Assembly: GCA_963664705.1 (NCBI GenBank)
Contig: OY761556.1
Coordinates: forward strand, 3,072,001-3,136,000
Source of the DNA: Acidobacteriota bacterium
GTDB lineage: Bacteria > Acidobacteriota > UBA6911
Length of the DNA stretch: 64,000 bases
Direction of reading: 5' to 3'
Shown: positions 1-18,368 of the stretch, one piece after another
How the letters are laid out: every line of letters begins with the position of its first letter
Numbering within the stretch: position 1 is the stretch's first letter
The notes under the pieces: model-generated
What the model was told of the DNA's origin: nothing
What the model saw: the letters and a program-made list of their open reading frames with translations, nothing else
The model's database searches: none
Program-made: the position numbers and the translations under genes

Positions 1-369
1 TTCAAATCCGGCGACATCCATCATGATTCTCACAAGATTTTTGCCTATGTCGTGTGTGTCGCCTTCCATGACACCGATAACCGCTTTGTGCTTTTCCACC
101 GTCGAATCCATCTTAAGATGGGGTCGAAGTATCTCCAGACCTGCATACATGGCATCCGAACAGATCAGCAGTTCAGGTACAAAGTATTCTTCCTTCTCAT
201 ACAGGACGCCTGCTTTATTCATGCCTGCAACCAGGCCGAGGTTGATGGCATCATAAGCGTCATATCCGGCCTCGACCACTTCTCTTGCAGCTTTCACCGC
301 CAATTCCTCATCCATGAGGAACACTCCGTCCATGAGATCCTTAAATAGATCCCCTCTTTCTCTGGGCAT
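1..369 (-). CDS. Cobalamin-binding corrinoid protein (MtaC/MttC-like), runs off the left edge
   Basis: Not in the ORF track. Manual translation from ATG at 369 gives MPRERGDLFKDL...GLVAGMNKAGVLYEKEEYFVPELL...EGDTHDIGKNLV, a B12 cap domain plus the DxHxxG motif. AGGT RBS upstream. Confidence 0.9.
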   Translation of the reverse strand, partial: MPRERGDLFKDLMDGVFLMDEELAVKAAREVVEAGYDAYDAINLGLVAGMNKAGVLYEKEEYFVPELLICSDAMYAGLEILRPHLKMDSTVEKHKAVIGVMEGDTHDIGKNLVRIMMDVAGFE

Positions 370-595
370 GTTCGTACCTACCTTTAATGCAAATTATTTG
401 ATTTATGGACCACGGCGCACCCGCAGGATGTGCCTATGCTCAGGTAAAGCCGGAGAAGGTATACAGATGGAAAGCGGTCATATTGAACAGCATAGCTTAT
501 GGACTGAATCGTATAAGAACGACTACTCTGTAATTAATTATCGTTAATGCTTGTTCCACATACGGAGAAAGCCTTGCGTATAAAAATCCACGGTT

Positions 596-2509
596 TCATG
601 CCTTTGGCCCCAAAAAGCGAGTGTTATCAGGCGATCGTTTTGTAATACCAACCCTGTCCAGATAATCCAGAAGCGGCAGCGCATATTTGCGGGTTGCATC
701 GATGAGATACTTAAACTGCACGCTTTCCATCCGCTTCTCTTTTTTAATGTGCTCTGTCACCAGTTCCCTTGCTTTTTCCACGGCTTCCGTGTGGAAGTAC
801 ATATCTCCGGCTACTCGTATAAGGCGCCCATGCTCCGTAAGGAGACGCAGAGCCTCGGCTGCCTCTTTGGTGCCCAGCCCGCAAACTTGCATAACTTCTG
901 CCCTATCGGGCGGGCTGAATATGCGTTGCAGGAATAGAGACTCCACATCCTGCAGACGTTTCTCTTCTGCAATGTCAAATCGAACGCTGTGCGATGCAAG
1001 AAGCACGCGATCTCCTGTTTTACGAATTTTGCCTCGGGATTCGAGTTCACTCAGCAGCCTTCGAATAACAGGTTTGGGCAGCTTGGATGTGGTTTGGCAG
1101 CTCTCGATTTCCAGCCCGGGGCTGGCCGGATCCTCCCGATGATATTTGGATATCTCTTCCAGCAGTTCCTGCGATAGTCTCTCGAAAGTGTCTGCGTGGA
1201 TAGTAAGGCTTTGCTCGAGGATCATTATCTTTGCGGAGTCGGCAAGCGACTGAACTATTCCCTCTGCGCAGCGTACTGTCTTCTTAATTCTTTGGGCGAT
1301 AGCCTTGATGGTTAATGCCTGGTCTGGGACCGTGCGGATAGCATATTCAGCGAACTCCGCATCGTCTCGCACGGCTTTAGCTCGACAATGCACATCTTCG
1401 AGTACGACGGGCCTGTTTCGTTTCAGCTTTCGTTCCAGCGCTTCGATGATCACTCCACCGCCGATAGTCTGAACGGGCGATAAGCTTCGCAAGATGAAGC
1501 GGTCCATCGGACCGGCCACGATAGGTTGGCTAAGTTGCACCTGCACAAGCGCGCGCTCCCCGCCACGAGAAACATCCCCTTCGAGCGTGTATACGGTTGC
1601 GGTATTCTCCGAAGTGCCGGTATGGAATTTCACCGAAGATCCGTTCTTGAGATACAGCCCATCGAGAGCCAGCATATTCAATTCGCACAAAAATAGATTG
1701 GCCGGAGTGAACCATCCTTCCACTGTAATGACATCCCCCCGGGAAATCGTATCCTGGTCCCATTGCGGCACATTAATCGCGGCACATTGTCCGCATTGCA
1801 CCCGATCCGACTGGGTCGCATAAACCTGAATTGCTTTTATCCTTCCGGTCGAAGCCTGAGGATAAATGATCACCTGTTCTCCCAAGCCGGCGGAACCACT
1901 GACAGGTATGCCGGATACGATCGTTCCATACCCTTTTACCGAGAAGGTGCGCTCGACGGGCAAACGGAATATGCCGTCTGTCTGTTTTGGCTTCAGGTTC
2001 TGAACCAAGTTCGCAAGTCCTTCATAAAACGGCTCGAATCCTTCTCCAGTAATGTTTGAAAAGGGAAAGATCGATGCGTTTTGTAGGAATGTCCCATGAA
2101 GGTAAGTGCGGATTTCCTGAGTAACGGTTTCGACACGCTCCGGAAGGACCTTGTCCACCTTGGTCAAAACGACAACGCCGTGCTGCACACCCAGCAGCGA
2201 CAGGATGTCCAGGTGCTCCCGTGTCTGCGGCATCACGCCATCATCGGCTGCAATAACAAAGATCACGGCATCGATCCCTGTAGCCCCAGCCACCATAGTC
2301 TTGACAAAGTTCTCATGCCCGGGAACATCTACAATCCCCACCTCGAGATCGGCGATTTTCCAGGGAGCAAAACCCAGCTCTATCGACATCCCCCTTTCTT
2401 TTTCTTCTTTCAACCGGTCGGTTTCGCACCCAGTCAGGTTCCCGACCAGGGCTGTTTTGCCATGATCGATATGGCCCGCGGTTCCAAGCGTAATGTTCTT
2501 TTGATTCAT
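596..2509 (-). CDS. selB: Selenocysteine-specific elongation factor SelB
   Basis: [21 protein letters not shown] GTPase motifs; C-terminal winged-helix TRKYALPLLDYLD. Confidence 0.97.
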   Translation of the reverse strand: MNQKNITLGTAGHIDHGKTALVGNLTGCETDRLKEEKERGMSIELGFAPWKIADLEVGIVDVPGHENFVKTMVAGATGIDAVIFVIAADDGVMPQTREHLDILSLLGVQHGVVVLTKVDKVLPERVETVTQEIRTYLHGTFLQNASIFPFSNITGEGFEPFYEGLANLVQNLKPKQTDGIFRLPVERTFSVKGYGTIVSGIPVSGSAGLGEQVIIYPQASTGRIKAIQVYATQSDRVQCGQCAAINVPQWDQDTISRGDVITVEGWFTPANLFLCELNMLALDGLYLKNGSSVKFHTGTSENTATVYTLEGDVSRGGERALVQVQLSQPIVAGPMDRFILRSLSPVQTIGGGVIIEALERKLKRNRPVVLEDVHCRAKAVRDDAEFAEYAIRTVPDQALTIKAIAQRIKKTVRCAEGIVQSLADSAKIMILEQSLTIHADTFERLSQELLEEISKYHREDPASPGLEIESCQTTSKLPKPVIRRLLSELESRGKIRKTGDRVLLASHSVRFDIAEEKRLQDVESLFLQRIFSPPDRAEVMQVCGLGTKEAAEALRLLTEHGRLIRVAGDMYFHTEAVEKARELVTEHIKKEKRMESVQFKYLIDATRKYALPLLDYLDRVGITKRSPDNTRFLGPKA

Positions 2510-2533
2510 AACTTTCCGATGCGGAATACAGCT

Positions 2534-3937
2534 TTATAAAATCTGACGTAAGGCTTCGATCACGATGGAATCTTCTCCCGGCAGGAGCGTCCTTGGATCA
2601 AATAACACTTGCTCGTTTTGAATCCTCGCAATGATGGGTATTCGGTGCTGGCGCAGCCTGAGAACCAGCGTCTGCGCGGATATTACTTTTGGAGTGATCA
2701 CCAGCAGTGTTGTTTGAAGGTTCTGGTCGGGCAGAGATCCACTGCCTGTCTGCGAAAATCCCTGAACTGTTTTGATTTCTGCCTGCGGTTGGGCCTCTCC
2801 AAGTTTGGCCGCCAATGTTTCAGCAGCAACCTGAAGATCTTCCGGTTTCCGAAGAATCATCTCGAGTGTGGGAAGTTTACGTTCAGCATTTTTTGAGTCG
2901 AGGAAAAGCCTGAGAGTCGCTTCCAGAGCTGCAAGAGTCAATTTGCCTACCCGCAGAATACGCGCAAACTGGTTTTTCCGGATCGCCGCTATTAAATCCG
3001 ATCTCCCAAGGATGATCCCTCCCTGCGAAGCGCCGATCAGCTTGTCAGCACTGCTGGTTATGAGGTCCGAGCCTGCCGCGATGGATTGTGGCAACGTCGG
3101 TTCCGGTTCAAAGCCATACCTCGACATATCTACCAGGGATCCCGCACCCACATCATCGATCAGAACGAGTTTATGTTTGTGGGCGATCTGTACCATCTCA
3201 TCGAGAGGCACCTCTGAGGTGAACCCGTGGATTTTGTAATTGCTGGGATGCACTCGAAGAAGCGCAGCCGTGTTTTCCGTAATTGCCCTCTCATAGTCCC
3301 TGGCATGCGTTTTGTTCGTGGTCCCGACTTCCACCATCCGGGCGCCGCTGAAGGCCATTACGTCCGGAAGCCTGAACTCTCCACCAATTTCGACGAGCTG
3401 GCCCCTGGACACAATCACCTCCTTACCCTTCGCGATTGTGTTGAGTACAATGGAGGTTGCGGCCGCGTTGTTGTTGACAACGGTAGCGGCCTGCGCGCCG
3501 GTAAGGCGGCAAAGAAGGGTCTCAACGCCTTCATCCCTGGATGATCTTTGGCCTGAACCTAAACCGATCTGGAGCCTGGAGTATCCGGCAAGTTCCTCCC
3601 TTATCTCCTCAAGAGCTTCCTTTGCGAGTACGGCCCGGCCCAGTGCCGTGTGCAAAATTATGCCTGTGGCGTTGATCACCTTTTGATAAAACGGCCGCTT
3701 CATTGAATTCAGGGCGCCGAGAGTCTGGCTGAGGATCTCCTTGGAAATATCGCTTTTGCTCTTGTCCTTATAAGCGCCCTTTTGGATTTTGGCTCGGACC
3801 TTTTCTTTGACCTCGCGCACGGTCAGGGTAATGATTTCGGGGTTGAACCCGATGCCTGCCGATTGCAGTTCCGCTGATTTGAGTATGACGTCAACAGAAG
3901 GAAGATTTCGCAGGGCTTGATTCTCCTGGTTTTTCAT
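2534..3937 (-). CDS. selA: L-seryl-tRNA(Sec) selenium transferase
   Basis: LRNLPSVD, VINATGIILHTALGRA, SRGQLVEIGGEFRLPDVM, SADKLIG PLP-lysine motif. Confidence 0.97.
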   Translation of the reverse strand: MKNQENQALRNLPSVDVILKSAELQSAGIGFNPEIITLTVREVKEKVRAKIQKGAYKDKSKSDISKEILSQTLGALNSMKRPFYQKVINATGIILHTALGRAVLAKEALEEIREELAGYSRLQIGLGSGQRSSRDEGVETLLCRLTGAQAATVVNNNAAATSIVLNTIAKGKEVIVSRGQLVEIGGEFRLPDVMAFSGARMVEVGTTNKTHARDYERAITENTAALLRVHPSNYKIHGFTSEVPLDEMVQIAHKHKLVLIDDVGAGSLVDMSRYGFEPEPTLPQSIAAGSDLITSSADKLIGASQGGIILGRSDLIAAIRKNQFARILRVGKLTLAALEATLRLFLDSKNAERKLPTLEMILRKPEDLQVAAETLAAKLGEAQPQAEIKTVQGFSQTGSGSLPDQNLQTTLLVITPKVISAQTLVLRLRQHRIPIIARIQNEQVLFDPRTLLPGEDSIVIEALRQIL

Positions 3938-4139
3938 AGGTCCCCATTCCGGAGTTAAACATCGCTCGAACCTGCGCTATGTCGCGCAACTTCTTACAAT
4001 CAGTAGTATGAGAATTGAAATCAGATAATGGGTAGACGGCGGACCGACGTTAGCGTTGGGACACTCAGGTATATCCGGAGAAGGTATGGATAGATTGTGC
4101 AGACCCGATCACAAGCAGACTCCAATTAATGGTTATCGC

Positions 4140-4169
4140 ATTATCAATCCGACCTTGCCAAACCGTCAA
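4140..4169 (-). promoter_or_regulatory. Putative sigma70 promoter for selA-selB
   Basis: TTGACG-18 nt-GATAAT on the minus strand. Confidence 0.35.
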
Positions 4170-4224
4170 TAGTTTTTTCAAGGGAGCAATTTTGAAATTT
4201 GGTGCCTTTTGAGGTAAGCGGGGA

Positions 4225-4413
4225 ATGGCGGCAAAGCGAAAGGAATTGCAAAAAGGACCGAAACAAATTATCGTGACGATTCGTTGATTGGACAAGAAAG
4301 TGAGTTTGCCTTGAAAACGGCAGTTTGGAAAACCTGGGAAGGCGGTTGAGTCGCGGCACACGATGCTCGTGGCGAGTTCGCTGGATGCCGGCCCGGGAGT
4401 GGCAATGCCGTAA
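4225..4413 (+). CDS. Putative 62-aa leader peptide with two in-frame UGA codons upstream of selD
   Basis: GAGGT SD at 4211-4215, ATG 4225, UGA at 4285 and 4312, TAA 4411: MAAKRKELQKGPKQIIVTIR-U-LDKKVSLP-U-KRQFGKPG...; only weak hairpins follow each UGA. Confidence 0.3.
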
Positions 4414-4532
4414 CTGCTTTTTGATTTCATTCCGTTCCATCTCTTAGGCTGCATCACATCCCATTCACAACCACAAAGATCAGCGCGGATTGGTTCCGCC
4501 TCAATTTGTTTCCTTGCCTAATGAGATCTACT

Positions 4533-6143
4533 ATGACGATCAATATTGAGCGACGAAGACGTGCAATGCAGCGTTCTGTTCGCCTGGGGCACTGTGTGTG
4601 CGACCCCGCAAAGCCCTGCCCCTGCGACCTGTTCAAGGAAAAAGACATTTGCCTCTGTGCCGGCGAGCGGTTGGAGGCTCCGGTCGGACCTGTCGCACTG
4701 ACGCAGTTGGTGGAGAAAGCCGGGTGCGCGTCTAAAATCGATCAAGCGTTTCTTAAGGCTACGCTTAATAATTTGCCCACCTTCGATGATCCGCATGTTT
4801 TGGTGGGAATGCCCGCGGGCGATGACGCCGGCGTGTACGAAATTGGAAATGGGATGGCGTTGGTGCAAACCGTGGATGTATTCACGCCTTCTGTAGACGA
4901 CCCATACCTATTTGGTCAGGTGGCAGCGGCTAATTCCCTCAGCGATGTTTATGCTATGGGTGGACGGCCGATCACCGCATTGTCAATTGTCGGATTTCCC
5001 GTGCGCAAGGTCCCGGACAGCGCCCTTCATGAAATAATGCGCGGCGGCATAGATAAAATGAAAGAAGCTGGGGTCCCGGTCATCGGCGGCCACAGTATCG
5101 ATGACGATCAGATAAAGGCAGGCTTTGCCGTAACCGGACTCATCCAAACCGATCAGGTAGCCACGAATGCTAATGCCCAGGTCGGTGACTTGCTAATTCT
5201 GACAAAGCCGCTGGGGACAGGAATTGTGGCCTTCGCCCGGCAAATCGGACGTGCCGAGGAAGAATCGGTAGCCGCTGCCGTGCAATCAATGACAACGCTC
5301 AATAAGGCAGCGGCAGAGCAAATGGCGGCGCACAATGTTCATTCTTGCACAGATGTCACCGGTTTCGGGCTTATGGGGCACTTGTCGGAAATGGCCTTGA
5401 GGAGCGGAGTTGATATTGAACTGCTCTGGGATAGTCTCCCCTGGTTCCCTGGTGTTTTGCAATATGTTGCCGATGGCATTCTTCCGGGAGCCATCGAGCG
5501 AAACAAAGAGTCGTGCGGAGACCGCGTATTTTCCGGCAGCGGGATCAGTGAACTTATGCTGGATATGTGCTTCGATGCTCAAACTTCGGGAGGGTTGCTC
5601 ATGGTGGTCGACCCGAAAAACTCGGAAACGCTTTTAAGCGCGCTACACCTCGCAGGCATCCCGGATGCATGTGTCATCGGCAACGTCCGGCAAAAAGGCG
5701 AAGGCCGCGTCTTTCTTGAAACCAATGGGAGAAGGAGATTACCTATGTCGAAAGATCAATCCAAACCCACTCCAACGCCGCAGGAATCCGCGTGCTGTAC
5801 GGAACAGGCCCAACAAGCTTCCTGCTGCAGCCCTGAAATCCAGACTGCCGGCTGTTGCTCCGGTGAGGCAGAATCAGCCGCCGAGTCGGGCGCGGAAGCA
5901 CTCTATGGGCAGTTTCTTTCCGCGGTAGGAAAGCCCGGAAGTCTGGATGCATTCACCAAACAGGCGATCAACATTGCGTTGGCGGTGGGGACCCGATGTG
6001 AACCCTGCCTAAAAGCCCACATTCAGAAGGCAAAACAAAACGGTTTCACACCGGCCGAGATAGATGAGGCCGCGTGGATGGGGGTGGGATTCGGAGGGTC
6101 GCCTGCTCTGATGATGTATACACGATTAAAAAATAGCAAATAG
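4533..6143 (+). CDS. selD: Selenide, water dikinase SelD (Cys form) with an N-terminal CxC-CPC-CxC domain and a C-terminal CMD/AhpD-like domain
   Basis: LTQ...GCASK, DDAGVY, QTVDVFTP, AANSLSDVYAMGG, TDVTGFGL, DAQTSGGLL; extensions CVC..CPC..CLC and RCEPC..H. Start could be 4521 or 4533. Confidence 0.95.
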   Translation: MTINIERRRRAMQRSVRLGHCVCDPAKPCPCDLFKEKDICLCAGERLEAPVGPVALTQLVEKAGCASKIDQAFLKATLNNLPTFDDPHVLVGMPAGDDAGVYEIGNGMALVQTVDVFTPSVDDPYLFGQVAAANSLSDVYAMGGRPITALSIVGFPVRKVPDSALHEIMRGGIDKMKEAGVPVIGGHSIDDDQIKAGFAVTGLIQTDQVATNANAQVGDLLILTKPLGTGIVAFARQIGRAEEESVAAAVQSMTTLNKAAAEQMAAHNVHSCTDVTGFGLMGHLSEMALRSGVDIELLWDSLPWFPGVLQYVADGILPGAIERNKESCGDRVFSGSGISELMLDMCFDAQTSGGLLMVVDPKNSETLLSALHLAGIPDACVIGNVRQKGEGRVFLETNGRRRLPMSKDQSKPTPTPQESACCTEQAQQASCCSPEIQTAGCCSGEAESAAESGAEALYGQFLSAVGKPGSLDAFTKQAINIALAVGTRCEPCLKAHIQKAKQNGFTPAEIDEAAWMGVGFGGSPALMMYTRLKNSK

Positions 6144-6177
6144 ATCGAGCAGGCAAACAAGTTGACCTAATTCACGC

Positions 6178-6207
6178 TTGACCTTGTATTGCAGGATGCC
6201 GTAAATT
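6178..6207 (+). promoter_or_regulatory. Putative sigma70 promoter of selC
   Basis: TTGACC-18 nt-TAAATT ending 7 nt before the tRNA 5' end. Confidence 0.5.
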
Positions 6208-6214
6208 CATCAGC

Positions 6215-6309
6215 GGAGGTGACGGGGGCCCGGTGGCTCCCGCGGTCTTCAAAACCGTTGAGCCGCCTTTAAAGCGGCAGGTGGGTTCAACTCCCATTCG
6301 CCTCCGCCA
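6215..6309 (+). tRNA. selC: tRNA-Sec (anticodon UCA)
   Basis: 95 nt; 8-bp acceptor stem GGAGGTGA/TCGCCTCC, anticodon loop CT-TCA-AA, long variable arm, G discriminator, encoded CCA. Confidence 0.97.
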
Positions 6310-6341
6310 CTACCCTTTGCTTCACTCCTTATCTCCGCCAA

Positions 6342-7091
6342 TTATCTTGTTGCCCGCAAATATACTCCCTCGGTGTACCTGGATGTGGTGTATCCGGTTT
6401 TGCCGAGAATCTTAGCCGAACGAAATCCGGCTTCGCCTAGTTTCGCCAGGTAGTCCCCACCCGGCAACGCTCCGGCGATTCAGGTCGACCAGGCATCCAT
6501 GCTCGCCAATGTCTCTTCTGGAATGCTTTCTACCACCACAAGATCGGCGGCCACAAAATTTCCGTCCGGACGTAACACCCGAGCGATCTCCCTAAAGGCT
6601 TTATCCTTATCAGGGACCAGGTTTAGAACACCGTTTGAAATCACGAAATCGAATGACGCATTTTCAAAAGGCAATTCTTCAGCCGATCCCTCTTGGAAAC
6701 GAAGGTTTTGCATAGCGGTTTCCGCCCGGGCTTTGCAGGCCCAATCGAGCATTTCGGCCGTAAAATCAATGCCGAAAACCAGTCCCTCCGGCCCCGCCAG
6801 GAGCGCTGAGACAAAAGAGTCAAGACCACAGCCACAGCCGATATCAAGGACTCGCTCTCCTTTACGCACGGAACGGATGCTGAATGGATTCCCCACTCCG
6901 ACGAATCTATCCACGACATCCTTCGGAATAGTACGGATCAACTCACGAGGGTATCCAAGCCGTTCCAAGCTCTCTTGTCCGACAGGATAGGGGAACAGAC
7001 CTTCCGCCTTATGCGAAACACCTCGGTATTTGCTCTTTATGGCAGACTGCAGTCGTTCTTTCCAATTGTCAGCGAAACAATTATCCGTCAC
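6342..7091 (-). CDS. ArsM-like SAM-dependent methyltransferase, selenoprotein (Sec at UGA 6480-6482)
   Basis: DIGCGCG SAM motif; reading through the UGA gives DAWST-U-IAGALPGGDYLAKLGEAGF...ATR*, matching the ArsM W-x-x-C-x-A-G-A motif; SECIS hairpin follows. Confidence 0.88.
6443..6467 (-). promoter_or_regulatory. SECIS-like hairpin (methyltransferase)
   Basis: UUGCCGGGUG-GGGAC-UACCUGGCGA, 10-bp stem starting 12 nt after the UGA. Confidence 0.75.
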
Positions 7092-7195
7092 TTAACAGGC
7101 GCTCCCGTGTTGGTTTTCACCCTATAATTCCATTACTGCCTCTAATTGTAGAATCGCTCATGCTATGATAATAATGATTTTGTTGGACAGATACG

Positions 7196-7210
7196 ATGCA
7201 GATTTCGCAT
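7196..7210. promoter_or_regulatory. Possible LysR recognition box (ATG-N9-CAT; T-N11-A)
   Basis: ATGcagatttcgCAT dyad at the lysR start, facing the divergent methyltransferase. Confidence 0.35.
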
Positions 7211-8131
7211 AGAATAATTTCCCAACTGAATTTTCAACACTTGCGCACATTCCAGATATTGGCACGCCTTGAGAACTTCTCCAGAACAGGCGATCAAGTC
7301 GGACTATCGCAATCAGCCGTTTCAAGGCACATCAGTGCGTTGGAAGAGGCATTGGGGCTACGGCTATTTGAACGTATCGGACGGCGCGCAATATTGACCT
7401 CGGCCGGAAGAATTTTGCGAGAACGAATTGAGACGCTTATGCGAGAAGCCGATGCTCTGCCGAACATTCTTAAAGATTTGGCAGAAGGGATACAGGGCGA
7501 TCTCAGGATTGGCGCCTGCATTACCGCCGCAAATGCCATTCTTCCGCAAGCTCTCGGGTTGTACAGGCATCAGTACCCACACATCGGGCTTTCACTTCAA
7601 CCGGGCAATAGTTCTGATATTATCGAATGCCTTCGACGGGGTGAGATCGATCTTGCATTTGTTGCCTCGGACAGGTTGCCTTCCGATGTTAAAACTCTGG
7701 CGGAAATTGCGGATGATCTGATTTTATTCGCCTCGCCGGATCACCCAATCTCGATCAAGCGTAACATTGAAGCGAATGATCTCGCTGATTGCGACTTTAT
7801 CCAGCGAGAGGCTCCATCAGACACACACTCGATGGTCACGCGTTGGCTAGAAGCGAAAGGAATTCAGTTGCGAAATCTGATGGATGTGTGGTGACCGGAC
7901 ACTATCAGGCGCCTGGTAGGCGCTGGGTTGGGAATATCTGCACTGTCCCGCCGATTAATTGCGGACGAACTCCTGAAGAGAACTCTTAAGGAGTTGCGAG
8001 TCAAAGGATGGCCGCTGTCCAGGAAAATTCGAATTGCTGTTATGAAGGAGTATTTTTTGTCCAGGGCAACGAAGCAGTTCCTTCAGTTGCTGCGACACAA
8101 GGTCCCGGAGGGACGGTTCTTTGATGCCTAA
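7196..8131 (+). CDS. LysR-family regulator with in-frame UGA (Sec233), 311 aa
   Basis: LysR HTH (LSQSAVSRHISALEEALGLRLFER); the same frame continues after UGA 7892-7894 as PDTIRRLVGAGLGISALS... to TAA, restoring normal LysR length. Confidence 0.85.
7906..7925 (+). promoter_or_regulatory. SECIS-like hairpin (LysR)
   Basis: CA(G)GCGCCU-GGU-AGGCGCUG, starting 11 nt after the UGA, with GU in the apical loop. Confidence 0.75.
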
Positions 8132-8212
8132 TACAGGGAACTCCGACGTCTCAATGGCGAGCCGAAAGAAACCGCAATCTGTTCCGCCAAGCAGTACGTA
8201 GCCGCTTCATGC

Positions 8213-8239
8213 GGCGGGCTTGATCAAACCAAGCCCGCC
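8213..8239. terminator. Hairpin between convergent genes (terminator or REP-like)
   Basis: GGCGGGCTTG-atcaaac-CAAGCCCGCC, perfect 10-bp stem. Confidence 0.5.
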
Positions 8240-8252
8240 ACACAGTTGTCAC

Positions 8253-9350
8253 TTACTTCTTCTTTTCCGCCCCTCTCTTTCCGCCCAGGTTGAACTGAAC
8301 ACCCAATTGCAGGCTGGTTTTTGCAAAATCTGCAGCTCTTTGGGTATTGGTGAAATCCAACCCGACATATTGATGAAGGCGAACAGGAACAGTGAGGTAG
8401 TAGGTCGCGAACCCCGCATCCCAAGCTATTCCCGGGGAAAGCGAAACCATGTACCCTGGCTGACGGTATCCAGATGTGGCGGTTAAAACGTTATAAACCG
8501 GAACACCAGCAACCTGGCTGCCGACAGACAACGAAAAGCGCTTGAAATGTGGAACAGCCGTGGATATGCCGCCGCTAAACTGGTAGGAATCCGGAGCGGT
8601 CAGATAGCGTACATTTTCCGCAACTGCCTGCGGACCGGCCGGGTTTACGGCCGCACCGAACGCGATGGTGTCGTTTTGCTTTTTGAGACTGAATAGGTAA
8701 AGCCCGCTTCCATAGACGCTGAATCGCCCTATCGAGCGGAACCCTTGAGCAGACAGCCTCAAGCCTAAAGCACCACTGCCAGGCTGAACAGCAGGATACA
8801 CGGGACGATTGATAATATTTGCCCCTTTGGAGTCGGGATAGGGGACCTGATAATTGGACTCCCCGGTTGGCAACCGAAGTCCCAAACCAACACTGATGTT
8901 CTGTTTGGTATTTTTTTCAGGATTCAGCAACCACATCCGGCCGCCAATGACGGCATCGCCGAAACCGTGCACGTGCTGATAATAGCGAGTGCCTGCGACT
9001 ACATTGCTCCAATAAGACCAGAGAACATAGGGAACTTCGGCGGTAAGGTTGATCCTGCGGGAGAGGCCATAGGCTCCCTGTAGATTCAGTGTGTCGCCTC
9101 CCTCCCACACCGAATTTGTCGATATGACGTCGTACCCACGAAACGTCTCATCGGTCGCAAATCGACCCCAATAGCTATTCAACTGAAACTGGCCCTTTTG
9201 CAGGTACGGGCCCATCATGCCGCCACGCATGGGCGACATACTCTTGGACAAAATTCAACCACAGCCCTGCGAGAATGCAGACTGAGGTATGAGTAGAGCG
9301 AGGCCGATTACCATCGGTAACAGCCAGCTCAAGTAATCACACTTCCTCAT
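8253..9350 (-). CDS. Exported outer-membrane beta-barrel transporter-family selenoprotein, paralog 1 (signal peptide + QGCG-U)
   Basis: AAAGGA RBS, ATG 9350, signal peptide ending SAFS, then QGCG-UGA(9255-57)-ILSKSMSP in frame with the 332-aa ORF; GFGD..LRLPTG..QPGSG motifs resemble the Phenol_MetA_deg-type barrel family. Confidence 0.85.
9217..9239 (-). promoter_or_regulatory. SECIS-like hairpin (barrel paralog 1)
   Basis: AUGUCGCC-CAUGCGU-GGCGGCAU starting 15 nt after the UGA. Confidence 0.7.
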
Positions 9351-9494
9351 CGAAACATTCCTTTCTAGCATAGTTTTCTCTATTGCACACAAGCAACGTG
9401 CCACATTGTGGTCGAATGAGTCCTTCGCATGCAAATATATTTGAATATTATAATAATGAGAAATACGGATAAGATCTCAGGTAAGGCGGACTGG

Positions 9495-10934
9495 TTATTT
9501 GGAGGGCGCAGCTTCCATATTGGCAATCGCGAACAACTCGCTTCGACTCATGATGTATAAAGCTCCATTCGCAGCAACCGGTGTGCTGTACACAGAACTA
9601 CCCATTAAATTCTTCGCGAGAGTCTTTTGCTTTTTGCCGGCCAGAAAAACAGCAACATCGCCATCTTCATCCGCGAGATATATCTTCCCGTCTGAAAGCA
9701 GCGGAGATCCCCAAATTGCAGACTGCAGATCGTAATTCCAATAGGATTTCCCGGTTTCACTGTCGAGACAATGCAGAACGCCGCTGAAATCGGAGATATA
9801 CACCAACCCATCGGCAATGGCCGCGGTCGAAATAGAGCGGCGGACTTTGTCGCTGTGCCAGACCCGTCCACTTTCGGTGATATCGCCGCTTTGGGATGGA
9901 TCAATACTGTACATATGACCGGGGCCTTCTCCATGTTCCGGATCCTGACCGCTGGGAACGAAGACCCTGTTATTAAAGAAGACCGGAGTAGCAATTCCGT
10001 AATTTTTTGTTTTGGGCCAGACTGCGTTTTTGGGGTTCAAATCAAAGGACCAGAGCCTCTCTCCGGTACGCGCATTGAAGCCGTAGAGCCATCCATCACC
10101 GCCGGGAAAGAAAACCTGCATCGTTCCATTGACTTCACCTAGAGCCGGCGAAGCCCATTGTCCGTGAAGGATATGATCGCCAGGTGAATTATCCTGCCAG
10201 ACAACTTTGCCGGAGTTTTTATTGACAGCAATGAAGCTTGGGGCTTTAGGCGCAAAGACCTTCTCGTGATTTTCCGATACACCGTTTGAGGTCTCCACGA
10301 AAATCAAGTCGCCCCAAATAACCGGCGAGGAGCTGGCCATGTTGTGCGCATAGGTCCCCAACTCCTGCATCATATCGAGCTTCCAGATTACATCCGCATC
10401 CAGTTTGCTTTTATAGGCTTCATTCTGAACCGGACCGTCATTTTTCCCATCTTGAAATCCCTCAGTATCCAGGCAGACGAGTTCGCCGCGATTTGTAACA
10501 TAATAGAGACGCTTTCCTTCCACTGCGGGAGAAGAACACACTCCCTGTTCCGGCCAATCGTTGGCCGGACCTGAATCCAGCTTGTCCGTTACCGCCTGCC
10601 AGAGAAATTGACCGTCAGATTCGCGGAAGCACATCAGGATTCCCTTGTCGTCTTTAATTTCCGGATTTCGCGCATGCGCATTGTTGGTTCCAACAAACAC
10701 TTTTCCGTCTGCAACAACGGGGTTACCGTAGGATGTATCCCCAAGTGCTGCTCTCCATTTTATGTTGCTGCCAGTCTTGAGATCCCAGGTCGAGGGCAGC
10801 CCGACAATGGAACTAATCATATTTCGCTGAACCGATCCTCCCCACATGGGCCAGTCCTGAGATACAAGCGGCAGAATGGAAGCCGCCAGCAATAGGGTTG
10901 CAGCACAAACAATTATAAAGTGCACGTGGCGCAT
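9495..10934 (-). CDS. Secreted PQQ-like (BamB-type) beta-propeller protein
   Basis: Signal peptide, DWPMWGG..RN, repeated SSP..G..L..D..TG..W units. Confidence 0.85.
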   Translation of the reverse strand: MRHVHFIIVCAATLLLAASILPLVSQDWPMWGGSVQRNMISSIVGLPSTWDLKTGSNIKWRAALGDTSYGNPVVADGKVFVGTNNAHARNPEIKDDKGILMCFRESDGQFLWQAVTDKLDSGPANDWPEQGVCSSPAVEGKRLYYVTNRGELVCLDTEGFQDGKNDGPVQNEAYKSKLDADVIWKLDMMQELGTYAHNMASSSPVIWGDLIFVETSNGVSENHEKVFAPKAPSFIAVNKNSGKVVWQDNSPGDHILHGQWASPALGEVNGTMQVFFPGGDGWLYGFNARTGERLWSFDLNPKNAVWPKTKNYGIATPVFFNNRVFVPSGQDPEHGEGPGHMYSIDPSQSGDITESGRVWHSDKVRRSISTAAIADGLVYISDFSGVLHCLDSETGKSYWNYDLQSAIWGSPLLSDGKIYLADEDGDVAVFLAGKKQKTLAKNLMGSSVYSTPVAANGALYIMSRSELFAIANMEAAPSK

Positions 10935-11032
10935 GGTCTTCTCGAATATCTTGCGATTATCTCATCGGATCTTGGATCCTTTAAGGTGGCGCTAGTCTGC
11001 CGCCTCAAGGGATCGCCGCACAAAGAACAGGT

Positions 11033-11572
11033 CTAAGGCTTTTCGGCGCCTGTTTTATCCGGGGAAGCATCCAATGCCTCCATGATCTTTGCTTCGAGTG
11101 CCTTCTCGTCCCCTCGGTTGTAACCATTCTGATAAAACAGAACCTCGTTCTTTCTGCCGAGCAGATAGTGGGTCGGTGTCATCGTGAGGCGATAATCATC
11201 CATAAGATCATCTTGGGATACACCCAGCAATACGGGCACGGTTATGTGATATTTCTCCGTCCAGCCTGCAATCAGTTTGCTTTCATCCGGCTTGACGTTG
11301 ATTATGACGTAGGACAACCCTTGTTCCTTATATTTGTCGTATATCTTCAGGACTTCTGGTATCGCAAGATTGCAATAAGCGCAACTTGGATAATAAAAGG
11401 CTACCAGGGTTAATTTGTTTGCAAAATCCGGCAAGGTTTTCGTGATGCCTTCGGGAGTTTTCAGCTTGAACGGTTTAAACTTTTCTGCTGCAGGCCCGAG
11501 GGTCGTTAATAGAATAAGGCAACAGACAGTCAGGATGGTAATTTGAATGCTTTTCCTATCGCTTCTTGTCAT
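11033..11572 (-). CDS. Exported TlpA/redoxin-family thiol-disulfide protein
   Basis: AAGGA RBS before ATG 11572, signal peptide, FYYPSCAYC CxxC, cis-Pro loop MTPT. Confidence 0.85.
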   Translation of the reverse strand: MTRSDRKSIQITILTVCCLILLTTLGPAAEKFKPFKLKTPEGITKTLPDFANKLTLVAFYYPSCAYCNLAIPEVLKIYDKYKEQGLSYVIINVKPDESKLIAGWTEKYHITVPVLLGVSQDDLMDDYRLTMTPTHYLLGRKNEVLFYQNGYNRGDEKALEAKIMEALDASPDKTGAEKP

Positions 11573-11683
11573 TTTGTATTCCTTGCAAATGCACTCATTG
11601 ATCACATTCAGGCAAACAAAAATGTCCGCATAATTCAGCGGGCAGCCACAGATGGCCACCCGCCGAAATAAACAGAATATCAA

Positions 11684-12787
11684 CTATTTTGCTGGTTTCT
11701 TTCCGCCGAGGCTGAAAGTCACGCCGAATTGCAGACTCATTTTATTCAGATTCCCGCTTTGCTGGGTGCCGGTAAAGTCCTTCAATATACCACCCCACAC
11801 ACGGACGGGAACTGTTAGAAAATAGGATCCAAGCTTTGTTCTCAGCGACAGGCCTGGGTTCAATGTTACAAGATATCCTGGCTGCCGATATCCCTCGGAA
11901 CCAGTCAGGACATTAAACGTCGGCACTCCCGCAATCTGGCTGCCCAAAGAGACGGAGAGCCCCTTCAAATGCGGGACAGGCGCGGACATGCCGGCATTAT
12001 ATAGATAGGAATCGGGCGTGGCGTTATAGCGCTTATTCGCCGCTACGGCGTCAGGCCCACCCGGGTTAAATGTGGACATGATTGACTGGGTATTGTTCTG
12101 CTCCTTGAAACTGAACAGATATAGAGCATTTGCATACACAGCGAAATGGCTGAACCTTCGGTATCCCTGCATTGCCACTCGGAGCCCGGCCGCACCGCTG
12201 CCAGGTTGTACGTCCGATTTTGCAGCATGGAGCTTGATATCCTGTCCCAGAATATTGGGGAACATAACCTGATAGTCCGAGTTTCCAGTAGGTAATCTGA
12301 AGGCCAACTGGAAGGCCATGTTCTGTTTTGTATTCTTTTCAGGATTGAAGAGCCATACGCGCCCGCCAATTATGGCATCACCCAGGCCTTTGGTTTTCAT
12401 TTCACGCCGTGAGCCTGCAATGGGATAGTTCCAGTAGGAATCGAGTAAGACCGGAACATCTGCGGTGATGTTGATTCTGCGGGTAAGGGCATACGCGCCC
12501 TGGAAGTTTAAGGATGTGCCACCCTGTTTTGGAGCCGCGTCCGCATTAATGAGGTCGCTCCGCAACTGGGTTCCGGTGAAGTATTGGTCGCTGTTAAACC
12601 GATTCAAACTGCCTTGAATCTGCCATTCTCCCTTTTCCAGATAGGGTCCAAGTAGGCCGCCGCTCATGGGGGCCACATTTCTTGCTAAAATTCAACCACA
12701 ACCTTGTGAAAACGCGCTCTGTGGCGCAAGCAGAGCCAGGCAAAGTGCCCACGGCACCAGCCAGCCCAGCAATTTCATCTTTGTCAT
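11684..12787 (-). CDS. Exported outer-membrane beta-barrel transporter-family selenoprotein, paralog 2 (signal peptide + QGCG-U)
   Basis: AAAGGA RBS, ATG 12787, MTKMKLLGWLVPWALCLALLAPQSAFSQGCG-UGA(12692-94)-ILARNVAP; UGA is codon 32, as in paralog 1. Confidence 0.85.
12652..12676 (-). promoter_or_regulatory. SECIS-like hairpin (barrel paralog 2)
   Basis: GUGGCC-CC-CAUGAGC-GG(C)GGCC(U)AC starting 15 nt after the UGA; weaker stem. Confidence 0.5.
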
Positions 12788-13153
12788 TTCTATTCCTTTC
12801 CATACACAGTTGTTTCAGCATTCAGAAAACCAGTTCATTTGACCAAAGCTTCCTCGCATTATGCAACAAGAAAGTTCTGCCAAATTGAGTAAGGCCAATT
12901 TCGCATACCTCCATAGGTCCGCGGCACTTTTATTGTCCGAAGGCAAATCCTAACTCAGATCTATTTTGCTCCGAAAAGCCTTGCTTCTATTCCCCTATCG
13001 GTGACACACTTATTCTGACATGAATAAAGTATTTACATCCCGCTTCTCCGGCTTCACTTGATAATCCTTTCCATACACGTCGGTACGCCGTCATCCTGAT
13101 TTCTCATTTTCGATAATCCAAATTGTGAGCTCATTGCAGCTGCGGAGCTTTGC

Positions 13154-13669
13154 GTGCAAGACACTGCGAAAGATAAGCCTCTTCTTATTCATCGACTCAA
13201 AACCTTTGATCGGAGCCTCGAAGAATTGCGGCACAAAGCCGGATCTGGTGAAATTGCGGCCAGCAAAGCGGAACAGCTGATTCGGCAGCTTTCGGGATCC
13301 AACGATATCAACTTGCGCAGGCAATTCAGATTTACCCGGAGTGGTGAAAACAGGATTACTTATTGTAGAAAATATGATTTGGGTTGCGGGTATCGGCTTG
13401 TATTCATCAGGAAAGGAGAGCAAATCGCCTTTCTATATGTTGGGACACATGACGACTGCTTTCGTTGGATTAGCCGAAATAGGGGATTTACCTACGAATT
13501 CGTTGATTCAATGAATAATCCCGAGCCTCCACGGCCAGAAGCTGAAACCAATCATTTCTCCGATGAACATCAATATCTTGAAACAGACGAATATGAAGAC
13601 CAGCTGATGCGCAAAATAGATGACAAAATTTTGCGGGTTGTCTTTGCCGGCCTGACAACACAGTCTTAG
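13154..13669 (+). CDS. Hypothetical protein with a RelE/YafQ-like segment and an acidic tail
   Basis: KYDLGCGYRLVF...LYVGTHDDC resembles RelE-fold YRL/VGTH motifs; start uncertain. Confidence 0.5.
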   Translation: MQDTAKDKPLLIHRLKTFDRSLEELRHKAGSGEIAASKAEQLIRQLSGSNDINLRRQFRFTRSGENRITYCRKYDLGCGYRLVFIRKGEQIAFLYVGTHDDCFRWISRNRGFTYEFVDSMNNPEPPRPEAETNHFSDEHQYLETDEYEDQLMRKIDDKILRVVFAGLTTQS

Positions 13670-13845
13670 TTCAGTTTTTTGATAGAAGATACTTCATATT
13701 TGCAGCATTCAGCAACGCGTGTTTTGGACCCAATCAAATTGTACCCTCATCCCAATCCCGAGTGAAAAACCAGCCACCATCCCCGTTTCCCATCCATGGG
13801 CTTATAGTCGTGGCTGGGAAACGGGGAACTGATAACAGGGCGCTA

Positions 13846-16197
13846 TTAAGCTTTACCAAGCGCTTTAAGCACCTTATCCGGCGTGGCAGGCGGGTCTACC
13901 CATTTATCAATTGCATTGTAAATGGCACAGATGATCATATGTGTGTTTGACATGGAATGGCTGATGCCGTTGGCCCCGTAGGTTCCATTGCCGGCGCGCG
14001 TTTCAACCAGACTCGTCTGTAGCTTCGGCACATCCAGCATGCCCGGTTTTTTGTACTCGATCATGTTGGTATTGAGTTTTACGCCGGTCTGCTTATCGTA
14101 GAAGTAGTCTTCAAACATCTGGCATCCCTGGCTGAAGAACGCAACCTGGTCGAGTTGCCCCTCAAGCGAAATGCGCCTGATTACTTTGCCCGAGTCCACC
14201 GCGGCTCCGTACCTCAGGATTTCCACCTCACCCGTTTCTGTATCGACAGCCACTTCGCAGTACAGAGTATTCAGTGTGTCATACTTGCTGGGCCATAGCG
14301 GTGCGGGAGGATGCCCGGCAAATGTCGCAAATACGTTTGACGAGAGACTCTTGATTGGTACCCCGGCAGTCTTGTCTGACTTGAGTACTATTTTGCCATT
14401 TACTATATCCAGGTCTTCCGGCTTCTTGCCCTTCAACGGGTTTGGAGCCGTCTTTCGCGGCGGTCCGAATCCTCCAGCCGCCGGTTTGTCCGCTTCAGCA
14501 ATCGCCGCTTCAAAAATGCGCTGTCTGAATATCTGGCAGCATTCTTTCATGACCCAACCCGTAGCTACAAGTCCGTCTGCCCCTCCGCTAATAGACACGA
14601 ACATTGCATTGGGATCATAATCAATGCTGATATCCGCAGCTTCCAGGCCGAGCTCTTCTGCGGCAATCATGGCAACGCCTTCAACAGAAAATACCCCAGC
14701 ATGGGGACCCTGGATCGGCATGTGCACAACTCCGTTCCGAAGCTCGAGCACTGCGTGAAAATCACTGCCCATTGCATGCCTTGGGCACATCTGGTATCTG
14801 AAACCGGCCCCGTGCATCCTGCCGTCAGGCAGTTTCTTTGCGCCGTTTTTATGCCAGGTCCAGTTCATCATTTTCTTTCCGGCTTCGATGCAGGCGTCAA
14901 AGCTGGGAACCGATCTTGTGTCCTTCTGTCCGTCAGGCCCATGGAGGTTCAGCCTGGCAATATCGATTGGGTCTTTCCCAAGTTTCTCGGCAATTATATG
15001 AATTGCCATAGTAACGGAGTCCCAATTGAAGGGACAAAATTGCGAACTGAATGGCATCAGACCGCGATTGCTGTCCACGATATCCATTCTCTGCCGGATG
15101 TTAAGGCATTTTGTTCCTATGTACGGTCCGTAACCCTGATCGCCAATAGTCCCGAAAAATGAATTGCCTGTAGTGCCGCCGTCGGCAATAGAGAAATCAT
15201 CGAAAGCGGTAATCAGTCCGTCCTTTGTAAATCCCACCTTCATGTGAATAAAACGCTGCTGAATCATGAAATCAAAGGTGTCCTTGCGTGTGTTTATGCA
15301 ACGCACGGGCCTTCCGGTCCTCTTTGCCAGAAGCGGCGTAATCTGCTGGGATCGTCGTATCGTCCAGTCGCAGTACTTGCCACCCTGAAAGAGCCCTTCC
15401 TGTACCGTCTTTTCCGGCGGCAGACCGTACAATTGTCCGATCGCGTTTTTGCCGCCGCTGGCGTGCCAGACAGCGCCTTCTATATGGAGATTATCTCTTC
15501 CAAGGTAAGGATCATCGAACCACCACGCTACGGAACTGTGCGGATTGGGAGAAGCGGAAGCATACGTAGGCATGTTTAGGTCGTATTCGATAATGTAATC
15601 GGCTTCCTTGAAACCTTGCTCTACATCTCCCTGGTTTTGATTTGAATAGGAAACATTCCCTTTTTTCGGAGGATTGTTATTCCCTCCCCCACCGAAAGGA
15701 TTGCTGGGACCGCCTCTATCCTCGGGCCGAATCACCGGAGCGCTGGCTTCTCTTCCCGCTTTGATATCCACGACATGCGGAAGGATTTCCCATTCCACAT
15801 TAAGTGCCTTTAAAGCCTCATCGCAGATATCTCCATTTTCCGCTACCACAATGAATCCCACTTCTATGTTTTCTTCTTCTGCAACATCGGAAATAAAAGG
15901 CTGGGGCGCACCGCCCATGCCGCCACGCTGCAGCTTTTTTAAGTCTTCATCCTTCCATGTGACGATATCCACAACTCCGGGAACAGCCTTGGCTTTTTCG
16001 AGATTGAAACTTTTTATCCTTGCGTGCGCATGAGGACTGCGCAGAAATTTGGCTTCGAGCATATTGGGAACGACATAATCGATTCCGAATTTAGCGAGAC
16101 CCGAGGCAACTGCCCATGACAGTTTGCCGGGCAGGTTTGCCCTGCCGACTACCCTGAAATCCTCTCTTTGTCCGTTAGTTCCTGTTAAATCAGCCAT
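13846..16197 (-). CDS. Xanthine dehydrogenase family molybdopterin-binding subunit
   Basis: LRSPHAHARI, LAKRTGRPVR, IAEKLGKDP, EVAVDTETGEV, EGQ, YK.P, PATPDKVL. Confidence 0.9.
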   Translation of the reverse strand: MADLTGTNGQREDFRVVGRANLPGKLSWAVASGLAKFGIDYVVPNMLEAKFLRSPHAHARIKSFNLEKAKAVPGVVDIVTWKDEDLKKLQRGGMGGAPQPFISDVAEEENIEVGFIVVAENGDICDEALKALNVEWEILPHVVDIKAGREASAPVIRPEDRGGPSNPFGGGGNNNPPKKGNVSYSNQNQGDVEQGFKEADYIIEYDLNMPTYASASPNPHSSVAWWFDDPYLGRDNLHIEGAVWHASGGKNAIGQLYGLPPEKTVQEGLFQGGKYCDWTIRRSQQITPLLAKRTGRPVRCINTRKDTFDFMIQQRFIHMKVGFTKDGLITAFDDFSIADGGTTGNSFFGTIGDQGYGPYIGTKCLNIRQRMDIVDSNRGLMPFSSQFCPFNWDSVTMAIHIIAEKLGKDPIDIARLNLHGPDGQKDTRSVPSFDACIEAGKKMMNWTWHKNGAKKLPDGRMHGAGFRYQMCPRHAMGSDFHAVLELRNGVVHMPIQGPHAGVFSVEGVAMIAAEELGLEAADISIDYDPNAMFVSISGGADGLVATGWVMKECCQIFRQRIFEAAIAEADKPAAGGFGPPRKTAPNPLKGKKPEDLDIVNGKIVLKSDKTAGVPIKSLSSNVFATFAGHPPAPLWPSKYDTLNTLYCEVAVDTETGEVEILRYGAAVDSGKVIRRISLEGQLDQVAFFSQGCQMFEDYFYDKQTGVKLNTNMIEYKKPGMLDVPKLQTSLVETRAGNGTYGANGISHSMSNTHMIICAIYNAIDKWVDPPATPDKVLKALGKA

Positions 16198-16255
16198 TGT
16201 ATACCCCCATGATTAATTGCAGCGCTGCGTAGGTTGCGATAATGTAATTAGATTG

Positions 16256-17299: not shown

Positions 17300-17319
17300 A
17301 AATATCTTGTCTATGAACC

Positions 17320-17393
17320 GTCCATCGGGTCGGAATCGGAATCGAAATTAGGCTTCCAACCCCAATACCGATTCCGACCGCGAATCCGATGGA
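17320..17393. repeat. Inverted repeat with hexamer-periodic arms
   Basis: GTCCATCGG-GTCGGAATCGGAATCG ... CCGATTCCGAC-CGCGAAT-CCGATGGAC. Confidence 0.6.
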
Positions 17394-17405
17394 CATTCTA
17401 AATGG

Positions 17406-18356: not shown

Positions 18357-18368
18357 GAGTGTCTCCTC

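What the first reader, a model, noticed from the sequence alone, without database searches (positions are those of the whole stretch)
596..12787. Self-contained selenium module: full Sec machinery plus four hidden UGA-recoded client genes
Seen: selB-selA and selD-selC are immediately followed by four genes broken only by a single in-frame UGA (6480, 7892, 9255, 12692). Each UGA is followed by a hairpin, and each gene regains a complete family architecture when it is read through. Established: SelA, SelB, SelD and tRNA-Sec suffice for bacterial Sec insertion. Inference: this is a dedicated system for uptake (barrels), redox handling (TlpA, SelD extensions), methylation (ArsM-like) and sensing (LysR) of selenium or a soft metal(loid). 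Standard annotation would miss it or call it pseudogenes.
Basis: partly seen in the sequence, partly recalled or inferred. Interest (0 to 1): 0.92.

Follow-up and report, generated by a model that had tools for sequence, protein, structure and literature searches.

The report
Second selenocysteine kit with new selenoproteins
This bacterium carries a second complete selenocysteine-insertion kit beside four genes whose internal stop codon is very likely read as selenocysteine; two of them, a DNA-binding LysR regulator and an outer-membrane channel, appear to be undescribed selenoprotein families that likely sense or capture reactive metal(loid) or selenium compounds.

Summary
Observation confirmed: selB, selA, selD, selC and four single-UGA genes lie where stated, and short-read contigs show the same letters. 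The UGAs are conserved. Barrel family (COG4313 fold): TGA at the mature N-terminus in 22 of 28 inspected phylum loci, TGC in 6; all 26 genomes with a TGA form have SelA; the hairpin covaries. LysR: 106 of 112 database homologs end exactly at the UGA position; a second genome has the TGA, the same hairpin and a conserved tail; Cys forms exist. Neither family is in a 119-family 2026 inventory or NCBIfam 20. The ArsM-like gene is a known selenoprotein type and lacks two canonical cysteines. 'Self-contained' is only partly right: the genome has another full Sec set and 31 UGA-bearing UGSC-like genes, so this is an accessory, probably imported kit. Its recurring core is kit + barrel(s) + TlpA + PQQ propeller; LysR and ArsM are add-ons here. 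Most likely the barrels use a Sec plug to bind soft metal(loid) or selenium compounds, and LysR is a Sec-dependent sensor; substrates are unproven. A Sec-containing bacterial transcription factor is the headline.

The parts
596..2509 (-). selB, accessory clade (34% identical to the genome's other SelB)
   Evidence: TIGR00475 330.8 bits
2534..3937 (-). selA, second copy (40% identical to the other SelA)
   Evidence: TIGR00474 541.5 bits
4506..6143 (+). selD, Cys form, with Cys-rich N-terminal extension and C-terminal CMD/AhpD domain (CxxC 498-501); ATG start at 4533 possible
   Evidence: TIGR00476 369 bits, PF02627; the genome's other SelD is the Sec form
6215..6309 (+). selC, tRNA-Sec(UCA), 8-bp acceptor stem, G73; accessory type distinct from the genome's other tRNA-Sec
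6342..7091 (-). ArsM-like SAM methyltransferase, Sec204 (UxxG) at the Cys224-equivalent; UGA 6480-6482
6443..6467 (-). predicted SECIS hairpin of the methyltransferase, GGA loop 23 nt after the UGA
   Evidence: similar hairpins in 4 genus homologs
7196..8131 (+). LysR-type regulator with Sec233 (W-U-P-D); UGA 7892-7894; divergent from the methyltransferase
7196..7210 (+). ATGC-N7-GCAT palindrome over the lysR start codon, predicted autoregulatory operator
7908..7924 (+). predicted SECIS of lysR, GGU loop 20 nt after the UGA; same stem-loop in G445
8253..9350 (-). outer-membrane beta-barrel 1 (COG4313/SphA fold), predicted signal peptide then Q-G-C-G-U; UGA 9255-9257
9216..9240 (-). predicted SECIS of barrel 1; loop starts CAUG, not the family's CGUG
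9495..10934 (-). secreted PQQ/BamB-type beta-propeller, no Sec; beside the barrel in other kit loci
11033..11572 (-). TlpA/ResA-like thiol-disulfide oxidoreductase, CxxC, no Sec
   Evidence: beside barrel homologs in G030, G007, L039, L043
11684..12787 (-). outer-membrane beta-barrel 2, 51% identical to barrel 1, Q-G-C-G-U; UGA 12692-12694
12652..12676 (-). weak predicted SECIS of barrel 2, no G at the first two loop positions

Best explanation
The region is a second, complete selenocysteine-insertion kit, likely imported, whose neighbouring UGA genes very likely make four selenoproteins: two outer-membrane barrels predicted to carry Sec on a lumen-plugging N-terminus that likely binds soft metal(loid) or selenium compounds, a Sec methyltransferase, and a LysR regulator that would be full-length, and so active, only when Sec is inserted. 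Shown: the genes, conserved TGA codons, TGA/TGC pairing, co-occurrence with SelA, a covarying hairpin, the duplicate machinery, and a predicted 12-stranded fold like 4RL8. Inferred: signal-peptide cleavage leaves Q-G-C-G-U as the first residues; by analogy with Pput2725 this segment lies in the lumen, where the selenolate (with Cys3) captures As(III)-, Hg- or Cu-type or selenium species; the CxxC TlpA next door keeps it reduced; the methyltransferase methylates a captured species through its single Sec; LysR represses itself at ATGC-N7-GCAT and controls the divergent methyltransferase, with Sec233 at a helix start acting as a reactive sensor and as a gate on selenium supply. The extra SelB and tRNA-Sec likely serve the barrels' atypical SECIS and add capacity in a Sec-rich cell.
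For: Barrel: TGA at the site in 12 of 12 family matches, 22 of 28 phylum loci with TGC in the other 6, 8 of 9 metagenome loci; 26 of 26 genomes with a TGA form have SelA, and the 7 without SelA are among the 11 with no TGA form; stem paired in 87.9% of cells, covariation 0.321 against 0.132 in shuffles and at most 0.158 when slid. Fold: Z 23.7, rmsd 2.7 over 256 residues to 4RL8, whose N-terminus occludes the lumen (PMC4493636 passages). Neighbours: hgcA-hgcB, arsF, arsG, acr3 (G030), SO_0444-like efflux (G004), YedF-like (L042); TlpA in 4 other loci. LysR: 106 of 112 hits end at the site, pairwise identity 41-97%; G445 has the TGA, the same hairpin, 56% identity over 70 residues after U and SelA; Cys at that column in 8 of 144 distant LysRs, as ELG-C-PET; in 102 N-termini codon 4 is never a residue that cannot end in G (background 40%) and codon 2 starts with C in 99, as the palindrome requires. 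Kit: accessory SelB (66-79%) in 3 other genomes of 51; the 48 non-self genomes otherwise give 32-44%; nearest named relatives are Phycisphaerae, Verrucomicrobiae and Planctomycetota; in G024 the kit flanks a known Sec TonB receptor (NF049946).
Against: No expression, proteomic or labelling data. The LysR stop codon was seen as DNA in only 2 genomes. Most Q-G-U barrels lie among unrelated genes and in genomes with one SelB match, so they need no accessory kit and show no metal link. G445's LysR sits beside DUF1264, cupin and hydrolase genes. Sec233 aligns outside the YeiE oxyanion pocket. Model residues 1-20 have pLDDT below 50, so the plug position is by analogy only. COG4313 channels were read as poor carriers of hydrophilic solutes. 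The CAUG loop is one clade, one event, and 10 of 31 UGSC genes also fail my crude canonical-SECIS test. Island GC (48-55%) does not stand out from the genome's 53%.
Confidence: 0.55

Rival explanations
1. All four are selenoproteins, but the island serves selenium scavenging and Sec capacity, not toxic metals: barrels import a Se compound, SelD-CMD activates it, LysR reports Se status to a cell with over 35 selenoprotein genes.
For: Barrels sit with selABCD in G000, G030, L043 and beside a YedF-like gene; the LysR's best NCBIfam match is LysR_Sec_metab; 31 UGSC-like UGA genes; the 2026 review passage says no high-affinity Se transporter is known.
Against: A Se importer that needs Sec for its own synthesis is poorly suited to starvation (inference); a barrel paralog follows hgcAB and ars genes; most barrels are far from sel genes.
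Confidence: 0.25
2. The Sec residues are redox or structural switches (periplasmic Se-S exchange with TlpA; an oxidant- or electrophile-sensing LysR) and the genes are gathered only because selenoprotein genes hitchhike with Sec machinery.
For: C-G-U motif next to a CxxC oxidoreductase; cargo differs between kit loci (barrels, TonB receptor, none); LysR and ArsM homologs occur apart from the kit.
Against: Repeated As, Hg and Cu/Zn transport neighbours; barrel + TlpA + propeller recur together.
Confidence: 0.17
3. The UGAs are real stops (pseudogenes, a short LysR form) or are read as Cys by a SelC*-type system.
For: 106 database LysRs end at this codon; a second selB with an opal tRNA-Cys is described in deltaproteobacteria (PMC5389517 passages).
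Against: Sequence after the UGA is conserved, with changes highest at third codon positions (24/20/36); TGA/TGC alternation tracks SelA; the tRNA has G73 and scores as tRNA-Sec; the locus has selA and selD and no cysS.
Confidence: 0.03

Closest known systems
LysR_Se / HrsM (NF040786) and sulfite-sensing YeiE (NF040889; PMC5322559 and PMC8931317, passages read)
   Same: Same LysR branch; pocket residues R204, S208, T210, N138, S139 match YeiE R191, S195, T197, N126, S127; lies beside sel genes.
   Different: Below both cut-offs (177 < 250; 172 < 480); no Glu145 equivalent; the passages read describe LysR_Se as a regulator of Se genes, not as a selenoprotein, whereas this one carries an in-frame UGA.
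COG4313 / SphA / Phenol_MetA_deg channels (Pput2725, PDB 4RL8; FapF)
   Same: [quoted passage not shown]
   Different: 12-17% identity, no Pfam hit to PF13557; Sec or Cys at mature position 3 or 5.
Known outer-membrane selenoproteins: Sec TonB-dependent receptors (NF049944-47), GSU2204 family (NF041027)
   Same: Sec in an outer-membrane protein; a CU-type receptor flanks the same accessory kit in G024.
   Different: No match of these barrels to those models; a small plugged barrel with N-terminal Sec.
Sec arsenite-methyltransferase-like families (NF008823 UxxG; NF041537, NF041536, NF047649)
   Same: Full-length match (257-279 bits), Sec at the Cys224-equivalent, UxxG.
   Different: Stand-alone, no fused second Sec domain; Cys72 and Cys174 equivalents are Val and Gly.
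selB*/selC* system (PMC5389517) and SAO selenoprotein neighbourhoods (bioRxiv 2022.07.06.499078)
   Same: A second SelB and opal tRNA; clustered selenoproteins tied to metal handling.
   Different: Here a full second selA-selB-selD-selC set with a true tRNA-Sec, and different cargo.

Membership tests
Bacterial selenoprotein (barrels) | Conserved in-frame TGA aligned to Cys in homologs | tested here: met
   22 TGA and 6 TGC of 28 loci; 12 of 12
Bacterial selenoprotein (barrels) | TGA form only in genomes with Sec machinery | tested here: met
   26 of 26 have SelA; 6 of the 7 SelA-negative genomes are one family
Bacterial selenoprotein (barrels) | bSECIS with G in the first two loop positions, 16-37 nt from UGA | tested here: inconclusive
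   30 of 30 Q-G-U-type loops hold GU (26 CGUG, 4 CAGU); the window's two and 9 of 9 close relatives have CAUG; stem covaries
Bacterial selenoprotein (LysR) | Conserved TGA, coding tail, Cys homologs, canonical bSECIS | tested here: met
   the TGA itself read in 2 genomes only
Bacterial selenoprotein (all four) | Selenium detected in the protein | not testable with these tools
   needs 75Se or MS
LysR_Sec_metab NF040786 | Score over cut-off 250 | tested here: not met
   177.3 bits
YeiE sulfite sensor | Glu145 selectivity residue; cut-off 480 | tested here: not met
   Val/Ala/Gly at the aligned columns, 171.7 bits
COG4313 channels | 12-stranded barrel fold | tested here: met
   Z 23.7 to 4RL8; Foldseek E 1.4e-10
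COG4313 channels | N-terminus inside the lumen | tested here: inconclusive
   residues 1-20 pLDDT < 50
Canonical ArsM | Cys44, Cys72, Cys174, Cys224 (PMC6138428 passages) | tested here: not met
   Cys72 and Cys174 columns are Val and Gly; Cys224 column is Sec; Cys44 column not aligned
ArsM_AhpD_UU / ArsM_DUF2284_UU / MTase_UXPK_star | Fused second Sec domain; cut-offs 510, 575, 460 | tested here: not met
   249 aa; 279, 262, 257 bits
SelC* tRNA-Cys / SelB* system | Cys-identity opal tRNA, extra cysS | tested here: not met
   G73, Rfam tRNA-Sec 70.6 bits, selA and selD present, no cysS ORF at the locus; U73 as Cys identity is recalled

The most novel reading that the evidence does not exclude
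A bacterial transcription factor that is itself a selenoprotein: UGA recoding makes the full-length LysR only when Sec-tRNA is available and its Sec senses a reactive ligand, so selenium status is wired straight into transcription. Beside it, an orthogonal second SelB/tRNA-Sec pair decodes non-canonical (CAUG-loop) SECIS elements of Sec-gated outer-membrane channels, which are the missing dedicated entry route for selenium or soft-metal compounds.
Probability: 0.3. Interest if true: 0.93.

Novelty: new variant of a known kind. Interest (0 to 1): 0.8.

Why it matters
The 119-family inventory (PMC13188914, Table 1 read in full) lists no LysR or other recognised DNA-binding regulator (only a putative FmdB-family regulatory protein) and no COG4313-type channel; NCBIfam 20.0 has no model for either. 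A Sec-LysR gives a direct test of whether Sec can act in transcriptional sensing. The barrel family (about one in ten sampled genomes of the phylum) gives candidates for the open question of specific selenium or soft-metal passage across the outer membrane. Two divergent SelB/tRNA-Sec pairs in one cell make SelB-SECIS orthogonality testable, which also matters for genetic-code engineering. More than 100 LysR and dozens of barrel records are currently truncated.

Tried and rejected
Sequencing error: rejected (those contigs are probably the source sample, so not independent biology; raw-read run X6 laid 0 reads, no test). No RNA holder listed. The search for related loci in genome contigs: barrel query found no relative; LysR alignment drew generic HTH patterns, 80 mostly unrelated loci, one useful. 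Sec-LysR not found in those searched: 0 of 50 family, 0 of 136 class, 0 of 400 phylum, 0 further in 300 of G445's order, 250 of its family and 5 handles; two '1 TGA' family hits had Met or Ser at the site. AlphaFold of the LysR was uninformative past residue 229 (pLDDT < 50, no aligned rows), so Sec233 geometry is unknown. Promoter and terminator counts were at chance; ATGC-N7-GCAT count in the window is at chance (2 against 1.46). 7/8 boxes upstream of both barrels (9416, 12892) share ATGCGAA with the lysR box, but 10 such sites lie in 13.3 kb and the conserved TTGCGA...CACAAT may be the core promoter: not used as evidence. RNAalifold on two barrel SECIS gave little. Orthogonal SelB: not shown. 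No complex prediction was run. Literature: 10 searches listed no paper on a Sec-LysR or such a barrel; Haft and Tolstoy 2025 was not held, known only through the review's table and NCBIfam; no supplements were read; subscription papers are not covered. Earlier-findings look-ups by words and sequence were empty.
Full report
Observation. The four sel genes are present and typical. Each of the four client genes becomes one complete frame when its single TGA is read: DAWST-U-IAGAL, LMDVW-U-PDTIRR and twice SQGCG-U-IL. Hairpins follow, strong for the methyltransferase and LysR (z -2.06, -2.28), modest for barrel 1 (-1.73), weak for barrel 2 (-0.67). Independent assemblies of the probable source sample match 1-17484 letter for letter at even depth. 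Homolog labels point to Acidobacteriota.

The kit is a second one. The single-contig genome has another selA (40% identical), selB (34%), Sec-form selD (44%) and tRNA-Sec, all scattered, and 31 UGSC-like genes with an aligned TGA among 34 hits (three were also noted by earlier agents). Among 51 family genomes 49 have a SelB match; the window's type (66-79%) occurs in G000, G024, G030 and G036, and G000, G024 and G036 also have the ordinary type; G000, G024 and G030 have two tRNA-Sec, of two types. The accessory SelBs form one long branch whose nearest named relatives are Phycisphaerae, Verrucomicrobiae and Planctomycetota at 36-43% over the C-terminal part, so import is likely; GC gives no signal. 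Cargo: L043 has barrel-tlpA, selC-selD, selA-selB-propeller-barrel; G030 has propeller-barrel-tlpA-selD-selC; G024 has instead a Sec TonB receptor over its NCBIfam cut-off. L041-L044 are near-identical and count as one case. Three contig lengths (11940, 28857, 112896) recur in the barrel and SelB hit lists, which suggests three more co-locations (inference). LysR and ArsM were not found in those loci.

Barrels. No NCBIfam family matched. Of 41 protein hits, 39 lack the Q-G-C start and 2 are full-length Cys forms. In DNA the site is TGA in 12 of 12 family matches and 8 of 9 metagenome loci, the ninth TGG in a frameshifted contig. A profile hit 39 of 401 phylum genomes (this tally includes G000 and one unpublished genome, G099, left out of all later counts). 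Of 28 loci inspected, 22 have TGA and 6 TGC right after a predicted signal peptide. All 26 of 37 genomes with a TGA-bearing match have SelA; 4 of the 11 others do; the 7 negatives are mostly one family, so this is not 7 independent events. The stem 20-26/34-40 pairs in 87.9% of 280 cells, with two-sided changes at 5 of 7 pairs; 0 of 500 shuffles reach the covariation score, and slid controls reach at most 0.158 against 0.321 (relatedness inflates the shuffle test). The model (pLDDT 73.7) is closest to the COG4313 channel 4RL8 and FapF, where the N-terminus occludes the lumen (PMC4493636, passages). Sec on that plug is the inferred working part. Neighbours point to soft metal(loid)s or Se in three cases (hgcAB with arsF, arsG, acr3; SO_0444-like efflux, 183 bits, under its cut-off; a YedF-like domain, under its cut-off) and to nothing specific in four (G003, G006, G008, G017). 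All 30 Q-G-U-type loops hold GU; the window's two and 9 close relatives have CAUG, outside the consensus rule quoted in PMC13188914, and G024's receptor also lacks a G loop. This fits a cognate SelB but is one clade, and 10 of 31 UGSC sites also fail my simple test.

LysR. None of 112 hits exceeds 240 residues and 106 end at the residue before the UGA, at 41-97% pairwise identity. In G445 (a Candidatus Acidoferrum MAG with SelA) the codon is TGA, the stem-loop is the same and the tail is 56% identical. One frameshifted record keeps the tail too (P0153). Eight of 144 distant relatives have Cys in that column, the best (37%) as ELGCPETVK, and three more distant records end at or near the site. 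The column is Ser or Asn at a helix start in CmpR/YeiE-type structures and is not among the YeiE sulfite-pocket residues; the pocket is kept apart from Glu145. So an oxyanion site and a separate reactive Sec are inferred. The family's first five codons are constrained as an ATGC-N7-GCAT palindrome would require (0 of 102 and 99 of 102 against 40% backgrounds; related sequences, pattern chosen after seeing the window), as expected for LysR autoregulation (recalled). The family is rare in representative genomes (see Tried and rejected), and its only other known neighbourhood is unrelated.

Methyltransferase. A known selenoprotein type; TGA in 4 of 4 other genus hits among 51 genomes. It lacks the Cys72 and Cys174 equivalents that canonical ArsM needs, and the genome has two canonical ArsMs, so As(III) is not its assured substrate.

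Comparison and novelty. Papers seen: PMC13188914 (section 7 parts 1-2 with Table 1, passages), PMC12013277, PMC9312934, PMC5322559, PMC8931317, PMC4493636, PMC11431864, PMC5389517, PMC6138428 and bioRxiv 2022.07.06.499078 (passages only). None of what I read lists a Sec-LysR or this barrel; ten searches listed none. Haft and Tolstoy 2025 and all supplements were not seen and could bear on novelty.

Verdict. Four real selenoprotein genes (about 0.95 for barrels and methyltransferase, 0.9 for LysR); two families apparently undescribed; an accessory rather than sole Sec system; metal(loid) or Se handling likely but unproven (0.55 as stated). Interest 0.8.

Noticed in passing
G000:C1, 31 sites, e.g. 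769201(-), 2633983(+), 3995510(+), 6758420(+), 6870141(-): Large expansion of UGSC-like selenoprotein genes (31 TGA of 34 aligned hits); with Sec SelD and rhodanese-, AhpF-N- and UshA-like candidates (labels recalled) the genome may exceed 40 selenoproteins.
   Followed up: partly
G000:C1:1625651-1625722(-): 72-nt tRNA-like element with a UCA anticodon between rtcR-like and rtcB/rtcA-like genes (labels recalled); not a tRNA-Sec by Rfam; perhaps an RNA-repair substrate or opal suppressor.
   Followed up: no
L014:11650-17827 (G030:C87): Sec barrel directly downstream of arsF-arsG-hgcA-hgcB, with acr3 divergent: a joint arsenic and mercury-methylation locus.
   Followed up: partly
L166:1820-3991 (G024:C5): CU-motif Sec TonB receptor beside the accessory selC-selD, with a hairpin lacking a loop G; CoA-activase and TusE/DsrC genes nearby.
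   Followed up: partly
L169:8743-13947 (G013:C25): A more distant selA-selD(CMD)-selB operon, a second SelB in that genome.
   Followed up: no
window 9401-9411 and upstream of barrel homologs: Conserved palindrome CCACAWTGTGG upstream of barrel-1-type genes; operator or -10 element, 8 copies in the genome.
   Followed up: partly
L002:2482-2490 (G030:C681): A Q-C-U variant of the barrel start, beside Q-G-U and Q-G-C-G-U: Cys was added next to Sec in two ways.
   Followed up: no
window 13846-19091; 19617-20798; 1-369: Molybdopterin oxidoreductase-like cluster with paralogs elsewhere (raised depth), an IS256-like transposase (labels recalled), and a corrinoid methyltransferase cluster on the other side of the island.
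   Followed up: no
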